This document shows, piece by piece, positions 1-55,936 of a stretch of 64,000 nucleotides of DNA; the first letter of the stretch is position 1; each line of letters begins with the position of its first letter. This DNA is from an uncultured Clostridium sp. (GTDB lineage: Bacteria; Bacillota; Clostridia; TANB77; CAG-508). The DNA lies in the NCBI GenBank assembly GCA_948473335.1, contig CAOKXF010000001.1, forward strand, positions 137,379 to 201,378, in the 5' to 3' direction. The notes under the pieces were generated by a model. The model ran no database searches, had not been told where the DNA came from, and saw nothing but the letters and a program-made list of their open reading frames with translations. Made by a program: the position numbers and the translations under genes.

Positions 1-1164
1 CAATTAGCTAATATTGTAGCACAAAGAATGAACAAAAAATTTGACATATTATTCATAGATTTAGAAGCACAATATAGACATACAATAAAGCATATAGAAG
101 AGCTAAAGGAATTATCACAAATAAGAGAATTTTATCATATTGCTTTACCAATAGCATTAAGAAATGCAGTATCAGTATTACAGCCTAAATGGATATGTTG
201 GGAAGAAGAAAGTAAGCACTTATGGGTAAGAGATATGCCAAAAGACAGTATAAATATAAAGAACTGTCCATTTGAATGGTTTAAAAAAGGAGAAGAATTT
301 GAAGAATTTACTGTACAATTTGCAGATTGGTATCAAAAAAAATATAAAGGAAGAGTAGCATGTGGAGTAGGAATTAGAACAGATGAAAGTCTAAATAGAT
401 TTAGAACTATAGCATTTAAGGGAAGAAAAGAAACTTATCAAGGATATAACTGGACAACAAAAGTAAAATTAAATGAAAGACACATTAATGTATATAATTT
501 TTATCCAATATATGATTGGGCAGCAGAAGATATATGGGGAGCAGTAAGTAAATTTAGTTTCAAATATAATTATACATATGAGTTAATGTATAAAAATGGA
601 ATAAGCATATATGAACAAAGACTCTGCCAACCATATGGAGATGACCAAAGGAATGGACTAGATCAATTTAAAGCATTGGAATATGACACATGGAGTAAAA
701 TATTAAATAGAGTAAATGGAGTTAATTTTGGAAATATTTATTGTAAAACAACAGCATTAGGAAATATAAAATCATGCAAACCAGATTTTATGACTTGGCA
801 AGAATATACAGTATTTTTATTAGAAAGTATAGGTATTTATAATAGAGATTTAATGTTACATTATTATAGAAAAATAAAGAAATTTATGGTGTGGTATAGT
901 TGCAAATATGGAACAGAAATAAAAGATATTCCAGATATAGCAGAATGTAGATTAGAAACACAGAAAAAAGCAATATCATGGAGAAGAATAGCAAGAGCAA
1001 TCGAAAAGAACGATTTCTATCTAAGAAGATTATCATTTGCACAAACAAAAAATGATGATAAAGAATTAATGGAATTAATACATAAATGGGACAACTTATT
1101 AAATAAAACAACAAAGACAGATGATAAAGTTTTACAAAAAATAATTGAAGAAAAATGTGTATAG
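1..1164 (+). CDS. IbrA-like PAPS-reductase-fold protein (PP-loop ATP pyrophosphatase family with C-terminal DUF3440-like region). The 5' end is truncated by the window edge
   Basis: The frame is open from nt 1 (QLANIVAQR-MNKK...) with no stop, so the Met at 28 is internal. The motif ILFIDLEAQY resembles the 'vvFvDTG.eFPET' region that follows the SGGKDS PP-loop in PAPS reductase/DndC-like enzymes, and that PP-loop would lie upstream of the window. A ParB-like partner gene follows, as in ibrA/ibrB pairs. Confidence 0.5.
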   Translation, partial: QLANIVAQRMNKKFDILFIDLEAQYRHTIKHIEELKELSQIREFYHIALPIALRNAVSVLQPKWICWEEESKHLWVRDMPKDSINIKNCPFEWFKKGEEFEEFTVQFADWYQKKYKGRVACGVGIRTDESLNRFRTIAFKGRKETYQGYNWTTKVKLNERHINVYNFYPIYDWAAEDIWGAVSKFSFKYNYTYELMYKNGISIYEQRLCQPYGDDQRNGLDQFKALEYDTWSKILNRVNGVNFGNIYCKTTALGNIKSCKPDFMTWQEYTVFLLESIGIYNRDLMLHYYRKIKKFMVWYSCKYGTEIKDIPDIAECRLETQKKAISWRRIARAIEKNDFYLRRLSFAQTKNDDKELMELIHKWDNLLNKTTKTDDKVLQKIIEEKCV

Positions 1165-1175
1165 GAGGATAAAAA

Positions 1176-1568
1176 ATGATAGTAAAAATGATAAATAAAG
1201 ATGAAAAATTTTATCAATATATGGGGAAGTTTTTTGGATCAAGGTTAGTAGAAAAACAAACCAATGATAGAATATATGATGATAATGATAAGGAATGGTA
1301 TATAAATCTAGAAGAAGAGAGAGTGGTTGCATTTGTATCTGTTAGCCAACATAAAATAAAAAATATATATGCAACAAAGGAAAAATATTTAGAAGAAGTA
1401 TTAAATGAAGTAAAAGATGATAGCAATCTTACATATAGTGTTGTAACAAAAAACTATGAAGAAGTATATGAAAGATGTGGATTTAAAATACATAAAGATG
1501 ACATTTATAGAAATTTTGTTACTATATATATGGAAAAAGATAATGAAACAGAACTAGTAAAAAAATAA
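1176..1568 (+). CDS. Small hypothetical protein (130 aa) sitting between the IbrA-like and IbrB-like genes, possibly a GNAT-like fold
   Basis: Strong SD AGGAGGA lies 7 nt upstream of ATG. The gene is tightly packed with its flanking genes (11-nt and 19-nt gaps). The C-terminal YERCGFKI resembles motif B of acetyltransferases, but this is weak. No confident family assignment. Confidence 0.4.
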   Translation: MIVKMINKDEKFYQYMGKFFGSRLVEKQTNDRIYDDNDKEWYINLEEERVVAFVSVSQHKIKNIYATKEKYLEEVLNEVKDDSNLTYSVVTKNYEEVYERCGFKIHKDDIYRNFVTIYMEKDNETELVKK

Positions 1569-1587
1569 GGAAGGAATAAATGTAGAA

Positions 1588-2172
1588 ATGAACGAAATAG
1601 AATTTCCAGTATTAAATGTAAAAATGGTAGATATAGATAAAGTAATAGCAAATGATTATAATCCAAATAAAGTAGCACCACCAGAAATGCAATTATTAAG
1701 ACATTCAATAGAAGAAGATGGATATACACAACCAATTGTAACATATTATGATAAAAAAAGGGATATCTATATAGTAGTGGATGGTTTCCATCGTTATAGG
1801 TGTGCTAAAGAATATTTCCATCTAAAACAAATTCCTATAGTAACGATAGATAAGGATTTAGAAAACCGCATGGCAAGTACAATAAGACATAACAGAGCAA
1901 GAGGAACACATCAAATTATAGATATGTCGAATATAGTTATAACACTTACGCAAAATGGGTGGACAGAAGCAAATATATCAAAACATTTGGGAATGGAATT
2001 AGATGAAGTAATTAGATTAAAGCAGATAACAGGTTTGAAAGAAGTATTTTCAAACCATACATTTAGTAAATCTTGGGAAGAATTTGAAGATAATAATATT
2101 ATACAAAAGATTCATAAAGAATTATTAAATTCAAAAGAAGTAAAAGAAAACAAAAATGATGAGAAATCTTAA
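1588..2172 (+). CDS. ParB-like nuclease (ParB/Srx fold) domain protein, IbrB-like
   Basis: N-terminal DIDKVIANDYNPNKV...IVVDGFHRYRCAK and HNRARGTH motifs are typical of the ParB/sulfiredoxin fold. SD aaggaagga is present. The gene is co-oriented with and adjacent to the PAPS-reductase-like gene. Confidence 0.65.
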   Translation: MNEIEFPVLNVKMVDIDKVIANDYNPNKVAPPEMQLLRHSIEEDGYTQPIVTYYDKKRDIYIVVDGFHRYRCAKEYFHLKQIPIVTIDKDLENRMASTIRHNRARGTHQIIDMSNIVITLTQNGWTEANISKHLGMELDEVIRLKQITGLKEVFSNHTFSKSWEEFEDNNIIQKIHKELLNSKEVKENKNDEKS

Positions 2173-4450: not shown

Positions 4451-4572
4451 TGTGTCAATGGGGACGTTCTTTGTGACACACTTTTCTACTTAAACGTAGT
4501 CAAATCAAGGGAAAATAGGAAATAAGCTAAAAAATAAAAAAGTGTGTCACAAAGAACGTCCCCATTGACACA
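4451..4572. repeat. Perfect 31-bp inverted repeat (arms 4451-4481 and 4542-4572, 60-nt spacer) in the divergent nth/hrcA promoter region
   Basis: Arm 1 tgtgtcaatggggacgttctttgtgacacac is exactly the reverse complement of arm 2. Each arm carries a TTGACA -35-like hexamer oriented outward. Confidence 0.8.
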
Positions 4573-5766: not shown

Positions 5767-6252
5767 ATGTCAGACGAGAATCAAACAAATCAAGAAATTA
5801 AAAATGAAAAACAGGATGAACTATTAAAAATACAAGAGGAATTTGATGAATTAACAGATAGATATAAAAGAGTAATGGCTGAATTTGAAAACCATAAGAA
5901 AAGGTCACAAAAAGAGAGAGAAATGTTATACAATATGGTACTATCAGATATAGTAGGAAGCATATTACCAGTTGTTGATAATTTGGAAAATGCAGTTAAA
6001 GCTGAGACAGAAGATGCAAATTATAAACAAGGTGTTGAAATGGTTTTAAAGCAATTTAAGGAAGTCTTAAGTCTTAAAGGAGTAGAAGAAATAAAGACAG
6101 TAGGTGAGACATTTGACCCTAGTTTACATGAAGCAGTAAGTAGTGTACAAGATGATACGAAAAAATCACAAGAGATAGTACAAGAATATAGAAAAGGATA
6201 TAAAATTGGAAGTAAGGTAATACGTCATTCAATGGTTGTGGTAGCAAATTAA
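5767..6252 (+). CDS. grpE: Nucleotide exchange factor GrpE
   Basis: Coiled-coil N-terminus and C-terminal GrpE signature (DPSLHEAV...GYKIGSKVIRHSMV). Position in the operon. Confidence 0.9.
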   Translation: MSDENQTNQEIKNEKQDELLKIQEEFDELTDRYKRVMAEFENHKKRSQKEREMLYNMVLSDIVGSILPVVDNLENAVKAETEDANYKQGVEMVLKQFKEVLSLKGVEEIKTVGETFDPSLHEAVSSVQDDTKKSQEIVQEYRKGYKIGSKVIRHSMVVVAN

Positions 6253-6403
6253 GTTAGCTGTAGGAATCTATGATTTCGTACAGATAACTTATGGAAAAAT
6301 GAGAAGCATTTTTCCATACATTATTCAATGAAGCTAACTGTAGAAATCCATAATTTCACACAGAAAACTTATAGAAAAATGAGAAGCATTTTTCCATACA
6401 TTA
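6253..6403. repeat. Tandem duplication (2 copies, ~79-bp unit, ~85% identical) of a hairpin-containing unit in the grpE-dnaK intergenic region
   Basis: Unit A covers 6253-6323 and unit B covers 6332-6403. Both end with cttatRgaaaaatgagaagcatttttccatacatta, a 10-11 bp stem with an agaag loop. Confidence 0.75.
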
Positions 6404-6452: not shown

Positions 6453-8303
<1,851 letters not shown>

Positions 8304-28582: not shown

Positions 28583-30121
28583 ATGTTATCACAAATAAAA
28601 TCAATAGCATTAAATGGACTAGATGGATATCTAGTCGAAGTTCAAACAGATATAGGGAAAGGTTTGCCATCTTTTGAGATAGTAGGACTTCCAGATGTTA
28701 CAGTTAAGGAAGCAAAGGAAAGAATAAAAACAGCTATAAAAAATGCCAGAATAGAATTTCCAAGTAAAAAAATATTAATAAATTTAGCGCCAGCTAATAT
28801 AAGAAAGGAGGGAAGCAACTTTGATTTACCAATGGCGATAGGATTATTAATTAGTATAGGTGCTATTCCAAGCGAAGTGCAAAAGTTATTAAATAATACA
28901 ATATTTATAGGAGAATTATCATTAAGTGGACAAGTTAATGGAGTAAGAGGAGTCTTACCAATGTGTATAGAAGCAAAAGAATTAGGCATAAGAAGAGCAA
29001 TAGTTCCAATAGCAAATGGATATGAAGCTGCGATAGTTCAAGGATTAGAAGTTATTCCTGTTAAGAATTTAGATGATGTAATATTGTATTTAACAGGTAA
29101 AAAGCAAATAGAAAAAATAGAATCAAATATACAAAAATTTTTTAATCTTAACAAAAAATATGATGTAGATTTTTCAGAAGTAAAGGGGCAAGAAAATGTA
29201 AAGAGAGCTTTAGAAATAGCAGCGGCAGGAGGACACAATTGCTTATTAATAGGAAGTCCAGGATCTGGGAAAACAATGCTTTCTAAAAGATTACCAACTA
29301 TTTTGCCAGATTTAACTTTTGAAGAAGCATTAGAAATTACAAAAATACATAGTATAGCAGGAAAAATGGTAAATGGATCTTCATTAATAACAGCAAGGCC
29401 ATTTAGAAGTCCACATCATACTTCATCTGGGGTAGCTTTGATTGGAGGAGGAAGAATACCGAAACCAGGAGAAATAAGTTTAGCACATTATGGAATACTA
29501 TTTTTAGATGAATTGCCTGAATTTAAAAGGAATGTACTGGAAGAGTTAAGAGGACCATTAGAAGATAGAAATGTTACAATTAGTAGAGTTGTAAATACAT
29601 TAACATATCCAAGTAATTTTATGCTGGTAGCAAGTATGAATCCATGCCCTTGTGGTTATTATGGAAGTAGTGAAAAGGAGTGCACTTGTAAACCTATAAC
29701 GATTAATAAGTATTTACATAAAATAAGTGGACCATTATTAGATAGAATAGATTTACATATAGAAGTTGAACCAGTTAAATATCAAAAACTAGATAGTAAC
29801 ATAAAATGTGAAACTTCAGAAGAGATAAAGCGTAGAGTTAATGATGCACGAGATATTCAGTTGAAAAGATATAAAGATTTCAAAATATATTCAAATGCTG
29901 AATTAGATGCAAATCTAATTGAAAAATATTGTAAATTAGATTCGAAAGCAAATATGATTTTAGAGAATGCATTTGAGAAGTTAGGATTAAGTGCAAGAGC
30001 ATATACAAAAATTTTGAAAGTCGCACGAACAATAGCAGACTTAGAGGGGAGTGAGGATATAGAATACGAACATATTGCAGAAGCAATACAATACAGAAGT
30101 TTGGATAAAAAATATTTTTAA
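28583..30121 (+). CDS. yifB: YifB/ComM-family Mg-chelatase-like AAA+ ATPase
   Basis: Lon-protease-like N-terminal domain, Walker A (GSPGSGKT), Walker B (ILFLDELPEF) and a Cys4 zinc motif (CPCGYYGSSEKECTC). Start set at MLSQIKS after a GAAAGGAGAAAA SD. Confidence 0.85.
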   Translation: MLSQIKSIALNGLDGYLVEVQTDIGKGLPSFEIVGLPDVTVKEAKERIKTAIKNARIEFPSKKILINLAPANIRKEGSNFDLPMAIGLLISIGAIPSEVQKLLNNTIFIGELSLSGQVNGVRGVLPMCIEAKELGIRRAIVPIANGYEAAIVQGLEVIPVKNLDDVILYLTGKKQIEKIESNIQKFFNLNKKYDVDFSEVKGQENVKRALEIAAAGGHNCLLIGSPGSGKTMLSKRLPTILPDLTFEEALEITKIHSIAGKMVNGSSLITARPFRSPHHTSSGVALIGGGRIPKPGEISLAHYGILFLDELPEFKRNVLEELRGPLEDRNVTISRVVNTLTYPSNFMLVASMNPCPCGYYGSSEKECTCKPITINKYLHKISGPLLDRIDLHIEVEPVKYQKLDSNIKCETSEEIKRRVNDARDIQLKRYKDFKIYSNAELDANLIEKYCKLDSKANMILENAFEKLGLSARAYTKILKVARTIADLEGSEDIEYEHIAEAIQYRSLDKKYF

Positions 30122-30159
30122 TATTTAAATTGTTTTTACAATAAAAAAGAAACACAAAG

Positions 30160-30500
30160 GAAGACAAGAGAGATGATGATATAAAAAAATAAAAAACAAA
30201 AAAAGCACCTTGTTTACTAATAGGCGCATATCCGCGCCCATTAGTAAAACAGTTGATATAAGCGGAAAATAAAGAAAAGTAAGAGAAGAAGGAGATGATG
30301 ATATAAAAAAATAAAAAATAAAAAAGCACCTTGTTTGCTAATAGGCGCATATCCGCGCCCATTAGTAAAACAGTTGGTATAAGCGGAAAAATAAAAAAAG
30401 AAAGAAAAAAAGATGATGATGTAAAAAATAAACAAGAGAGTATCTTGTTTACAAATAGGTGCATATCTGCGATAAGATAATTAGTAAAACATCTAAATAT
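30160..30500. repeat. Tandem array of three ~120-bp units (the third degenerate), each carrying one copy of the dispersed ~45-bp palindromic element
   Basis: The period is marked by gatgatgatataaaaaaat at 30172, 30292 and 30411. The embedded palindromes are at 30209-30252, 30330-30373 and 30444-30490. Confidence 0.85.
30209..30252. repeat. Dispersed palindromic element, copy 1 (cttgtttactaataGGCGCatatccGCGCCcattagtaaaacag)
   Basis: Imperfect ~16-bp outer arms around a GC-rich inner stem. The same element recurs at 30330, 30444, 42846 (opposite orientation) and 55671. Confidence 0.85.
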
Positions 30501-30930
30501 ATTAAAAAAGAGTAATAGAAATTAAAGAAAAGGAGGAATATATCTAATTCAATAAGCAATACATTGCTAAAGAAATAGAATCATAGTACTTATGAAATTA
30601 AAAATAATAGATAAACAAATATTAGACATTTATGAAAATGAAAACAAACAAAAGTTATTCAAAGCAAGTGATTTTCAAAAAATTATGGAATTAAGAACAA
30701 GATTTAGTGATTTTATAAGACGAAAGGGAATTAATTTAATAGAAGAAAAAGACTATTACAAGGTAAAAGCAGAAGAATCTTCTAATAAAAAGCAATTTAA
30801 AAACAAATTCGAATATTACATAACACAAGAAACAGTACAAAGAATATGTTTTGTAAGTAAGAACAAAATATGTCAAAAAATACAAGAAGAGGCATTAAAA
30901 AATAAAGAAAAAAACTTTTTGGAGATATTA

Positions 30931-32010
30931 ATGACGACGCTAAATAAAATAAAGCAAGAGGAAAGAATAGAAGAAATTATAGAAATAAATATGAATGATG
31001 AAGAATATCCAGAAAAATTAAAACAGATAAAAAATCCACCAAAAAAAATATACATAAAAGGAAATGTAGAACTTTTAAAACAAAATGGAATAGCAGTTGT
31101 AGGGTCAAGAACAACATCAAATTATGGAAGAAAAATGTGCAAAATATTTGTAAATAATTTAGTAGGCTATAATTTAAATATAATAAGTGGTCTAGCAACA
31201 GGGATGGATTCACTAGCGCATAGGACTTGTATAGAAGCACAGGGAAAAACAATAGCTGTTTTACCATGCGGATTAAAGCACATTTATCCAAAAAGTAATG
31301 AAATATTATATAATAGAATACTTGAAGAAGGAGGACTTATAGTAAGTGAATATGAACTTAATGAAAAAGAAAGTTCAGATCATTTTAGAGAAAGAAATAG
31401 AATAGTAGCAGGATTATCAATAGGAACATTAGTAGTAGAATCACATAGAAAAAGTGGAACAAGTATTACAGTGCGAAATACAGAAGAACAAAACAAAAAG
31501 TCATTTTGTATACCGAGTAGTTTAGAAAACACAAAAGGAGCTGGAAATAATGAAATGATAAGGGATAAGAGAGCAAAGTTGGTAATTACAGTAGAAGATA
31601 TAATAGAAGAGTATACAGAATTGAAATTAAAAAAGAGAGAAGATTTTGAGTTCTTAGATATAAGCAATTTAAAAAATAAAATGAAATTAACAATAGAAAA
31701 TGAAGGTATAAATATAAGTAAAAGTATGGATATAAGCAAAGACCTAAGTAAAAACAAAAGTAAAGATATACATAAAAACATAAACAAAGAGATAGGTGAA
31801 AAAATAGATGAAGATATAGGTAAAGGCATAAGTAAAGAAAATATAGAAATTTATAATGCAATAATAGAAGGAGCAGAAACAATAGATGAAATAGCAAGAA
31901 AGACTAATAAAGACAGTAAAGAAGTAGCATGCAAATTAACAATATTAGAATTAGAAAATGCAATAGAAGCATTACCAGGAAAAAGATTTAAAATTAAAAA
32001 GCAAAAATAA
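30931..32010 (+). CDS. dprA: DNA-processing protein A (DprA/Smf), without the N-terminal SAM domain. It carries a K/I/S-rich low-complexity insert before the C-terminal winged-helix domain
   Basis: Rossmann-fold core GIAVVGSRTTSNYGRK...GLATGMDSLAH...RNRIVAGLS. C-terminal WH domain (IYNAIIEGAETIDEIARKT...LTILELENAIEAL). The start is set at MTTLNK (ATG 30931) because GGAGA lies 5 nt upstream. The same frame stays open back to ATG 30592, which has no SD. Confidence 0.7.
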   Translation: MTTLNKIKQEERIEEIIEINMNDEEYPEKLKQIKNPPKKIYIKGNVELLKQNGIAVVGSRTTSNYGRKMCKIFVNNLVGYNLNIISGLATGMDSLAHRTCIEAQGKTIAVLPCGLKHIYPKSNEILYNRILEEGGLIVSEYELNEKESSDHFRERNRIVAGLSIGTLVVESHRKSGTSITVRNTEEQNKKSFCIPSSLENTKGAGNNEMIRDKRAKLVITVEDIIEEYTELKLKKREDFEFLDISNLKNKMKLTIENEGINISKSMDISKDLSKNKSKDIHKNINKEIGEKIDEDIGKGISKENIEIYNAIIEGAETIDEIARKTNKDSKEVACKLTILELENAIEALPGKRFKIKKQK

Positions 32011-41635: not shown

Positions 41636-41803
41636 TAATGATATAGAATGTAATAAAAATTATAATGAATATATAATAAAAGTAATAAATAAATTAAAGC
41701 AAGTATGAGATTAAAATGCAATAAATAAATTAACATAAATGCATGATGAAAAAAGTAATAAAGAAAGGAGGCAGTTAGTTTATTAAACTAACGACTACTA
41801 AGA

Positions 41804-42733: not shown

Positions 42734-42845
42734 GAATTTAATCATATTACACTTATATTAGCTATTTACTCGTATTATATATTATTAGTAGAGTAGACCA
42801 ATTAAAGATATATATATTATTTTTTAGAGAAGTACTTATTAACAT

Positions 42846-42878
42846 ATGGGCGCAGATATGCGCCTATTAGTAAACAAG
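42846..42878. repeat. Dispersed palindromic element, copy 4 (opposite orientation, right arm diverged)
   Basis: tatgGGCGCagatatGCGCCtattagtaaacaag is the reverse complement of cttgtttactaataggcgcatatctgcgccc. Confidence 0.75.
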
Positions 42879-43012
42879 TATTTTTTTGCATAATGCACTC
42901 AATAATAGTTAAATTACATGTTTTCTAATATGCAAAAAATAACAATAAAAAATAATAAAAAAGTATTGCAAATAACAAGTTTTATTGTTATCATAGAATA
43001 AGAGAATACTAT

Positions 43013-49510: not shown

Positions 49511-49569
49511 AAAATTCAACTTTTATCAAAAAATGTATTTACTACATTTTTTGATAAAAGTTGAATTTT
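49511..49569. terminator. Perfect 27-bp-arm palindrome (5-nt loop), a bidirectional terminator between the convergent pgsA and sigK genes
   Basis: aaaattcaacttttatcaaaaaatgta (49511-49537) is exactly the reverse complement of 49543-49569. A/T runs flank it on both strands. Confidence 0.75.
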
Positions 49570-55440: not shown

Positions 55441-55670
55441 ATTTTAAAAACTCCTTAGTCTGTGTAGCAAAAGCGAAACTTTTCTACACATTTGTGCATC
55501 GAAATTTTGATTTTGCAGATGCACACTTTTCTTATATGATTGAATTATACAATAAAATTATGTAAATAGCAATAAATAGATTTTATTTTTACAATTGCAT
55601 AAAGTAGTATTATGAGATTTTTATAGTTTTAAAGATATCATTAAGTATATGTGTTCTTTTTAAAGTGTGT

Positions 55671-55714
55671 CTAGTTTAATAATAGGTGCATATCTGCGCT
55701 TATTAGTAAACTAG
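55671..55714. repeat. Dispersed palindromic element, copy 5 (ctagtttaataataGGTGCatatctGCGCttattagtaaactag)
   Basis: Same architecture and core as the copies at 30209, 30330 and 42846. It lies in the spacer between the divergent U32 and rsgA genes. Confidence 0.8.
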
Positions 55715-55936
55715 TTGAAATAAAAGGAAAAATATAAAAAAGAAAGGAAAGAAGAGAGAAGCAATATAGATATAACAAAAAACAAATTCATAATATATCC
55801 AATTAGATAAAATAATAAAATGAACCTAAAAAACTTGAAAATAAAAAAAATAAATGATAAGATACACAAAGAAAAGAGAAATATACATTTACAAAACTAA
55901 TTTACTAACAAAAAAACCTTGAAAGGAAACAAAATA

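What the first reader, a model, noticed from the sequence alone, without database searches (positions are those of the whole stretch)
30160..30500. 3 x 120-bp tandem array, carrying a dispersed palindromic element, between yifB/comM and dprA
Three head-to-tail ~120-bp units fill the yifB-dprA spacer. Each is marked by gatgatgatataaaaaaat and by one copy of the 45-bp palindrome. The third unit is visibly decayed. The array sits immediately upstream of dprA, whose start region is atypical. It could act as a strong multi-hairpin terminator or insulator, or as a regulatory array for dprA. Alternatively it may be a hotspot where the palindromic element amplified
Basis: seen in the sequence. Interest (0 to 1): 0.5.

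Follow-up and report, generated by a model that had tools for sequence, protein, structure and literature searches.

The report
Amplified palindromic intergenic repeat before dprA
The three ~121-bp repeats between comM and dprA are real, but they are a local pile-up of a hairpin-forming "junk-like" intergenic repeat that also sits next to unrelated genes and changes copy number between strains, so this is an ordinary REP/MITE-type element, not a dedicated dprA switch.

Summary
Tandem Repeats Finder reports a 121-bp period at 30156-30471 (2.7 copies, score 442, the top array in the window). Each unit carries a 19+6+19-nt palindrome, and the third unit is decayed.

The host is an uncultured, 27%-GC Clostridia MAG. 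The same palindrome occurs singly between tktB and ftsE (opposite orientation), between a U32 peptidase gene and rsgA, and upstream of a sortase gene on another contig.

Related strains carry 4 or 5 copies in the same comM-dprA spacer. One strain's array equals another's minus one unit, with the junction inside the palindrome core. The arm variants assort freely, and one solo copy has its 6-nt loop flipped between strains. These are DNA-level recombination signatures.

Read in reverse, the element is a canonical intrinsic terminator (20-bp stem plus T-run). In the array that orientation is antisense to comM and dprA, and the sense strand has no U-tract.

I found no promoter, Rfam match, coding potential or transposase.

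Verdict: a lineage-restricted REP/BIME- or MITE-like, terminator-derived repeat, tandemly amplified. It is a new member of a known kind and of low interest. Any effect on the comM/dprA mRNA is inferred.

The parts
28565..30121 (+). comM/yifB (Mg-chelatase-like AAA+ competence protein), the upstream flank
   Evidence: Pfam Mg_chelatase, ChlI and Mg_chelatase_C
30156..30495 (+). Direct tandem array of three ~121-bp units. Each unit has an A-rich leader, a palindrome and a purine-rich tail ending in AGGAG-ATGATGATATAA
   Evidence: TRF period 121, 2.7 copies, score 442; the repeat finder family D2; unit identities 91% and 65%
30209..30252 (+). Unit 1 palindrome: arms 30209-30227 and 30234-30252, loop ATATCC, with a conserved A.C mismatch (G.U on the reverse strand)
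30330..30373 (+). Unit 2 palindrome, one substitution relative to unit 1
30444..30491 (+). Unit 3 palindrome, decayed: C-to-T changes in the core and the right arm interrupted by ATAAGATA
30530..30568 (+). Conserved dprA-proximal sequence outside the array: an orphan SD-like AAGGAGG (30530-30536, probably the tail of unit 3) and the 14-bp palindrome AGCAATACATTGCT (30555-30568)
   Evidence: Conserved in window, L086 and L118. In-frame stops at 30553 and 30568 were read
30592..32010 (+). dprA (472 aa, with a weak AntA-like N-terminal extension), the downstream flank
   Evidence: Pfam; the identical protein is found on 7 contigs
42828..42890 (-). Solo copy, hairpin only, in the opposite orientation. 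On the window + strand it reads as a hairpin followed by U7, about 100 nt after tktB and before ftsE. The loop is flipped (AGATAT vs ATATCT) between strains
55661..55722 (+). Solo copy, hairpin plus purine-rich tail, in the divergent spacer between a U32 peptidase gene and rsgA. The arms are a third, self-complementary variant

Best explanation
The array is a local tandem amplification of a lineage-restricted, non-coding, dispersed palindromic repeat of the REP/BIME or MITE kind. Its sequence is that of an intrinsic terminator: a roughly 20-bp stem with a GC-rich core, a 6-nt loop and a T-run on one side. Shown: the element occurs at four or more unrelated intergenic sites in both orientations. 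In the comM-dprA spacer it is present in 3, 4 or 5 direct copies depending on strain. Copy number changes by crossover inside the conserved core, which also shuffles left and right arm variants. The core undergoes palindrome-type DNA events such as a loop flip. Inferred: the array is tolerated here because it lies with its T-runs on the antisense strand, so it does not cut off dprA. On the sense comM-dprA transcript it contributes two or three stable stem-loops of about -20 kcal/mol without U-tracts. As with REP/BIME elements inside operons, these would at most act as 3'-exonuclease barriers or weak attenuators that uncouple comM and dprA mRNA levels. They would also stop any antisense transcription. 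The mode of dispersal (transposase-mediated or gene conversion) is unknown.
For: A 121-bp array is present. Dispersed copies lie at 42.85 kb and 55.68 kb in the window, and in L097/L125 upstream of a sortase gene, where the 52-nt hairpin is identical to unit 1. All four sites are intergenic. Arrays have 4 copies in L086 and 5 copies in L118=L119=L121. L086 equals L118 minus 119 nt, with the junction inside the core. Arm variants occur as A/A, B/B, A/B and B/A, and covariation is not above shuffle (111/500), while 84.6% of cells pair against 28-44% when the partner is slid. The loop is AGATAT in some strains and ATATCT in others at the orthologous tktB-ftsE copy. Antisense terminator calls in L118 number 5 against 0.2 expected, with none on the sense strand. 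RNA folding is more stable on the reverse strand, -25 vs -20 kcal/mol, with a G.U replacing the A.C mismatch. Short-read assemblies break exactly at the palindromes. There is no Rfam hit, no promoter in the array and no match in phage or plasmid collections.
Against: No transposase, RAYT or recombinase was found in about 110 kb of this organism (and the Pfam lists). No clean empty site or target-site duplication was seen, so mobility as such is not shown. The solo copies are fixed in every strain sampled. Density is low, at three sites per roughly 72 kb, which is unlike classical high-copy REPs. No expression data exist, so all RNA-level effects are inference. Copy numbers come from short-read metagenome assemblies, which can collapse repeats.
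Confidence: 0.7

Rival explanations
1. A selected multi-hairpin terminator or insulator that separates comM from dprA transcription.
For: Each intact unit forms a stable hairpin (z = -3.7 on the sense strand). comM has no other terminator-like site, and no sigma-70-like promoter precedes dprA. An array is kept at this site in all strains.
Against: On the sense strand the hairpins are followed by CAGUUGAUAUAAG, not a U-tract, and the scanner calls no sense-strand terminator in the window or in L118. The T-runs are on the antisense strand. Copy number and unit type vary freely, and some copies are decayed.
Confidence: 0.12
2. A dprA-specific regulatory array: repeated operators for a competence regulator, or a structured 5' leader.
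For: It lies immediately upstream of dprA, between two transformation genes. The palindrome has the two-arm, 6-bp-spacer layout of a dimeric binding site.
Against: The same element sits by tktB/ftsE, rsgA and a sortase gene. The copy closest to dprA is the decayed one. The hairpin at rsgA has 3 substitutions in about 45 nt against 7 in about 440 nt of flank. There is no Rfam match. The conserved dprA-proximal block (30530-30568) lies outside the array.
Confidence: 0.05
3. Tandem antisense small-RNA genes or type I toxin-like modules. Each unit read in reverse gives a CU-rich stretch (anti-SD-like CUCCUUC), then a terminator. An ATG inside the hairpin opens a small hydrophobic ORF (MGADMRLLVNK followed by a Phe/Leu-rich run).
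For: Canonical terminators are called on the antisense strand. Recurrent small ORFs are seen there. Tandem sRNA genes are known elsewhere, such as LhrC in Listeria (from my own knowledge).
Against: No promoter-like site lies on the antisense strand in any unit. No SD precedes the ATG. The ORFs differ in length (38, 39, 42 and 119 aa, and about 15 aa at the 42.85 kb copy, read by hand) and in sequence after residue 11. Unit lengths of 121, 113, 118 and 119 are not multiples of three. The 55.68 kb copy lacks the ATG.
Confidence: 0.05
4. The palindrome core (about 10-11 bp arms around a 6-bp centre) is a site for a tyrosine recombinase (Xer/dif-like or attC-like), and the array is built by site-specific recombination.
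For: The crossover junction lies inside the core. The arm-6-arm architecture fits such a site.
Against: No recombinase gene is nearby (Pfam lists). The core is also the longest identical stretch between units, so homologous recombination or replication slippage is enough. A flip of the loop alone is not a product of site-specific recombination. There is no similarity to phage or plasmid sequences.
Confidence: 0.05

Closest known systems
REP / BIME elements of Enterobacteria (BIME-2 tandem clusters)
   Same: Extragenic imperfect palindromes with a conserved stem mismatch, dispersed in both orientations and locally amplified into tandem clusters of variable copy number. They can sit inside operons as mRNA stem-loops. 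L118 even shows an alternating two-unit (232-nt) period.
   Different: In BIMEs, successive REPs alternate in orientation; here all palindromes are direct. This palindrome is longer (44-46 nt). Density is low, at about 1 site per 20-25 kb. No GTAG/CTAC foot motif and no RAYT gene were seen. The host is a 27%-GC Clostridia MAG, not a proteobacterium.
Pneumococcal BOX elements (boxA-boxB(n)-boxC), with RUP and SPRITE
   Same: A small non-coding intergenic repeat in a low-GC Firmicute with a tandemly repeated internal module of variable number and strong predicted hairpins. BOX next to competence genes has been reported to modulate their expression (from my own knowledge).
   Different: There is no sequence similarity and no A/B/C modular ends. 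Here the repeated module is itself a terminator-like palindrome plus linker.
MITEs such as Neisseria Correia elements
   Same: About 100-150-bp non-autonomous units bounded by or containing inverted repeats. They are intergenic and can carry terminator or promoter activity and be co-transcribed.
   Different: No target-site duplication, parental IS or presence/absence polymorphism was found. The inverted repeat here is central rather than terminal.
Rho-independent (intrinsic) terminators
   Same: In reverse orientation the element has a 20-bp stem with a GC-rich core followed by a T-run, and a standard scanner calls it. The tktB-ftsE copy is placed and oriented like a real terminator.
   Different: Ordinary terminators are locus-specific sequences. 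This one is a copied family, and in the array it faces the wrong way for both flanking genes.

Membership tests
REP/BIME (RAYT-associated extragenic palindromes) | Short imperfect palindrome confined to extragenic DNA, in both orientations | tested here: met
   All sites are intergenic and both orientations occur. 84.6% of stem cells pair, and a conserved A.C mismatch is present in 11 of 13 copies.
REP/BIME (RAYT-associated extragenic palindromes) | High copy number (hundreds per genome) | tested here: inconclusive
   Three sites in about 72 kb of this genome, plus one on another contig. There were 0 hits in species-representative genomes and 1 in JGI contigs.
REP/BIME (RAYT-associated extragenic palindromes) | Clusters made of REPs in alternating orientation (BIME) or inverted doublets (REPIN) | tested here: not met
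   All 3, 4 or 5 palindromes of the arrays are in the same orientation.
REP/BIME (RAYT-associated extragenic palindromes) | Cognate RAYT (Y1 transposase) gene in the genome, and a GTAG-type foot motif | tested here: inconclusive
   No Y1_Tnp or any transposase was found in about 110 kb (and the Pfam lists). No GTAG/CTAC is seen at the hairpin foot in the sequences. The rest of the genome was not seen.
MITE | Target-site duplication and presence/absence polymorphism between strains | tested here: not met
   Solo copies are present at orthologous sites in every strain, and no strain-specific insertion was found. The sortase locus of a relative with 72% protein identity lacks the element, but it is too diverged to define an empty site.
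MITE | Terminal inverted repeats matching a parental IS | not testable with these tools
   There was no match in the plasmid or phage collections. The host genome is not available for an IS search.
Intrinsic terminator | GC-rich stem-loop followed directly by a U-tract on the transcribed strand, downstream of a gene | tested here: not met
   For the array there are no sense-strand calls, and the U-tract lies on the antisense strand only (5 overlapping calls against 0.2 expected in L118). The feature is met for the solo copy after tktB by folding (hairpin plus U7), although the simple scanner did not flag it.
Tandem sRNA genes / type I toxin-antitoxin repeats | Own promoter per unit and, for toxins, a conserved small ORF with an SD | tested here: not met
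   No promoter-like sites lie within the arrays. The ORFs are variable and lack an SD. No Rfam family matches.
CRISPR array | Identical repeats separated by unique spacers | tested here: not met
   The linkers between palindromes are themselves repeated: whole-unit identity is 91% between units 1 and 2, and 91% at the 232-nt doublet period in L118.

The most novel reading that the evidence does not exclude
The element is a self-propagating intrinsic-terminator cassette whose orientation at each site has been filtered by selection. On this reading the comM-dprA array is a recombinational rheostat: gain and loss of units by crossover in the cores changes how much transcription reads from comM into dprA, or how well antisense transcription is blocked, and so tunes the expression of transformation genes between strains.
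Probability: 0.1. Interest if true: 0.5.

Novelty: new member of a known kind. Interest (0 to 1): 0.22.

Why it matters
It matters mainly as a practical annotation point. This uncultured Clostridia lineage has its own small family of terminator-like palindromic repeats. The family breaks short-read assemblies at fixed places, which explains why most metagenomic contigs end between comM and dprA. It also varies in copy number between strains, so it is usable as a strain marker. It is a clear natural example of unit gain and loss and arm shuffling by crossover inside a palindrome core, and of a loop flip between strains. It does not point to a new regulatory mechanism for dprA or competence.

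Tried and rejected
1. An exact-pattern scan of the palindrome core found 0 hits in species-representative genomes, 0 in viral contigs and 1 in JGI contigs. This left no census and no named host.

The best hit was 62% identical, so it was useless for synteny.

3. Rfam at gathering and permissive thresholds gave only noise, with E above 5.

4. blastn of the hairpin against the plasmid and phage collections found no match.

5. I expected the arm variants to show covariation. Compensated variants exist (A, B and C arms), but chimeras are as common as matched pairs, and the formal score is not above shuffle. I therefore dropped the claim that the outer stem is under structural selection.

6. The presence/absence test for mobility found the solo copies fixed in all strains. 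The sortase locus in the nearest other species was too diverged to use.

7. The antisense sRNA and type I toxin reading was rejected for lack of a promoter, an SD and ORF conservation.

8. A repeat protein is excluded because the unit lengths are not multiples of three.

9. The 106-nt tktA-tktB indel between strains turned out to be unrelated AT-rich sequence.

10. Two literature searches found no description of this element.

Full report
**Observation.** The window is about 27% GC, with a purine-rich + strand throughout. TRF reports a single strong array at 30156-30471: period 121, 2.7 copies, 85% matches, score 442, the best in the window.

GATGATGAT recurs at 30412, where the marker carries a substitution and an indel. 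The palindrome TTTACTAATAGGCGC-ATATCC-GCGCCCATTAGTAAA is at 30213-30248 and 30334-30369, with none expected by chance. With its outer stem it spans 30209-30252 and 30330-30373.

The third copy (about 30444-30491) has C-to-T changes and an 8-nt interruption of the right arm. Unit 1 vs unit 2 is 91% identical, and unit 1 vs unit 3 is 65%.

The flanking genes are ComM/YifB (28565-30121) and DprA (30592-32010). The array covers about 340 of the 470-nt spacer.

**Organism and reality of the array.** The exact proteins map to MAGs labelled only 'Clostridia bacterium', and one source names the neighbouring PBP SpoVD. An independent assembly (L001) reproduces the sequence from the first palindrome through unit 3 to dprA base for base.

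Most short-read contigs carrying dprA or comM stop inside a palindrome. The sortase contig L125 does the same. This is the usual behaviour of assemblers at repeats.

**The element is dispersed and not dprA-specific.** Pattern, repeat and profile searches find the same palindrome at two other places in the window:
- 42828-42890, in the opposite orientation, about 100 nt after tktB and before ftsE.
- 55661-55722, in the same orientation as the array and with part of the purine-rich tail, in the divergent spacer between a U32 peptidase gene and rsgA (gene identities).

One JGI contig (L097) has a full unit whose tail runs into the ATG of a sortase gene. Its 52-nt hairpin is identical to unit 1, and the whole unit is 75-80% identical. 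A second assembly of that locus (L125) has it too.

The locus in a relative with 72% protein identity shares the upstream gene's terminator but has unrelated sequence where the element would be. No copy was found in species-representative genomes, viral contigs, plasmids or phages. This is a lineage-restricted, low-density family: three sites in about 72 kb surveyed.

**Variation between strains.**
- *Copy number.* Contigs from related strains that span the spacer carry 4 palindromes (L086, TRF period 113) or 5 (L118 = L119 = L121, three independent assemblies). In L118 the 232-nt doublet period matches better than the 113-nt period (91% vs 80%), so two unit types alternate.
- *Crossover in the core.* L086 equals L118 with 119 nt removed between the cores of copies 1 and 2. 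This yields a hairpin with an A-type left arm and a B-type right arm.
- *Arm variants.* The outer arms come in self-complementary variants: A (CTTGTTTAC/GTAAACAAG), B (CTTATTAAC/GTTAATAAG) and C in the rsgA copy (CTAGTTTAA/GTAAACTAG). A/B and B/A chimeras are as frequent as matched pairs.
- *Formal pair count.* 84.6% of stem cells pair, against 28-44% when the partner is slid. Covariation is not above the shuffle control: 111 of 500 shuffles reach it. The palindrome is real, but I cannot claim selection on the outer stem. The pattern is what crossover in the cores would produce.
- *Loop flip.* At the orthologous tktB-ftsE copy the loop is AGATAT in some strains and ATATCT, its exact reverse complement, in others, with the arms unchanged. 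This is a DNA-level palindrome event: a template switch, or short-patch conversion through the symmetric GGCGC stems.
- *Substitution rate.* The rsgA copy has 3 substitutions in about 45 nt against 7 in about 440 nt of flank, so it shows no sign of stronger constraint than the surrounding spacer.
- *No insertion polymorphism.* Solo copies are present in all strains and no strain-specific insertion was seen.

**What the sequence would do.**
- *Reverse orientation.* The element is a textbook intrinsic terminator. In L118 the scanner-bp stems followed by T-runs at three of the five hairpins (5 overlapping calls against 0.2 expected), all on the strand antisense to comM and dprA. RNA folding is also better on that strand (-25 vs -20 kcal/mol), because the conserved A.C mismatch becomes G.U.
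- *Sense strand.* The hairpin is followed by CAGUUGAUAUAAG, and no terminator is called.
- *tktB-ftsE copy.* This copy is oriented so that the hairpin plus U7 follows tktB, with promoter-like sites for ftsE downstream. It is plausibly the working tkt terminator.
- *Promoters.* No sigma-70-like promoter lies in the array on either strand.
- *Other families.* No Rfam family matches even permissively.
- *Antisense ORFs.* Small ORFs (MGADMRLLVNK followed by a Phe/Leu-rich run) arise mechanically from an ATG in the palindrome and the T-run. They lack an SD, vary in length and sequence, and the unit lengths are not multiples of three.
- *Mobilising genes.* No transposase or recombinase is encoded in the window or the related loci (Pfam lists).

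**Interpretation.**
- *Shown:* a dispersed, terminator-like palindromic repeat has been amplified in tandem between comM and dprA, and the array is remodelled by recombination within the cores.
- *Inferred:* the orientation seen upstream of dprA, rsgA and the sortase gene is the harmless one, with the terminator pointing away from the downstream gene. On the presumably co-transcribed comM-dprA RNA, the hairpins would act as REP/BIME stem-loops do in enterobacterial operons (my own knowledge of that literature). That means 3'-exonuclease barriers or weak attenuators, and also terminators of antisense transcription.
- *Unknown:* how copies reach new sites.

**Comparison with known families.** It works like REP/BIME elements, pneumococcal BOX elements or Correia-type MITEs. 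It fails or cannot be tested on several defining features of each:
- It has direct, not alternating, orientation.
- No RAYT gene was seen.
- It has no target-site duplication or empty sites.
- Its density is low.

I therefore file it as a new member of the general kind 'small non-coding intergenic palindromic repeats', not as a member of a named family.

**The dprA start.** The SD-like AAGGAGG at 30530-30536 looks like the tail of decayed unit 3, and in-frame stops at 30553 and 30568 separate it from the ATG at 30592 (read). A 14-bp palindrome AGCAATA(C/T)ATTGCT between them is conserved across strains. It is a better candidate for dprA-specific control than the array.

Noticed in passing
window 30555-30568 (and 30530-30536): A 14-bp palindrome AGCAATACATTGCT (a perfect AGCAATATATTGCT in L086 and L118) and an orphan SD-like AAGGAGG lie between the array and the dprA ATG. 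Both are conserved across strains although the arrays differ. This is a possible operator for dprA.
   Followed up: partly
window 30592-32010: DprA carries an N-terminal extension of about 100 aa with a sub-threshold AntA/AntB antirepressor-like match (24.6 bits against a cutoff of 27). Gene callers start the orthologue 34 codons later in other strains.
   Followed up: no
window about 41646-41751: A 106-nt AT-rich segment in the tktA-tktB spacer is present in the window and L098 but absent in the JGI strain (L099) and L104. It is unrelated to the palindromic element.
   Followed up: partly
window 4451-4491 / 4532-4572: A 41-nt inverted repeat, 95% complementary with arms 40 nt apart, lies in the divergent spacer between an HhH-GPD glycosylase gene and hrcA. 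It is not the canonical CIRCE sequence on a quick reading.
   Followed up: no
window 6247-6403: A second intergenic tandem duplication (80 nt x 2, 87% identical, TRF score 244) lies between the 161-aa ORF (5767-6252, presumably grpE, not checked) and dnaK.
   Followed up: no
window 49511-49569: A perfect 27-nt inverted repeat with a 5-nt loop lies between convergent genes (CDP-alcohol phosphatidyltransferase and a sigma-70 factor). It is a typical AT-rich bidirectional terminator of this genome, unlike the GC-cored element.
   Followed up: no
L098 17940-20930 and L100 14921-17473 (orthologous to window about 49.5-50.3 kb): Some strains carry a small island (HTH, nucleotidyltransferase, DUF4160, large serine recombinase) where the window has the sigma-70 factor gene.
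   Followed up: no
window 28-2172: A DUF3440 gene is followed by a ParB_N-domain gene, an IbrA/IbrB-like pair, at the left edge of the window. The exact DUF3440 protein is not on record elsewhere.
   Followed up: no
L118 about 7820-7870: The linker before the last palindrome of the 5-copy array has a short (AAAAAAT)n and (AATAAGAT)n expansion that is absent in L086. This adds slippage-type length variation on top of whole-unit changes.
   Followed up: no
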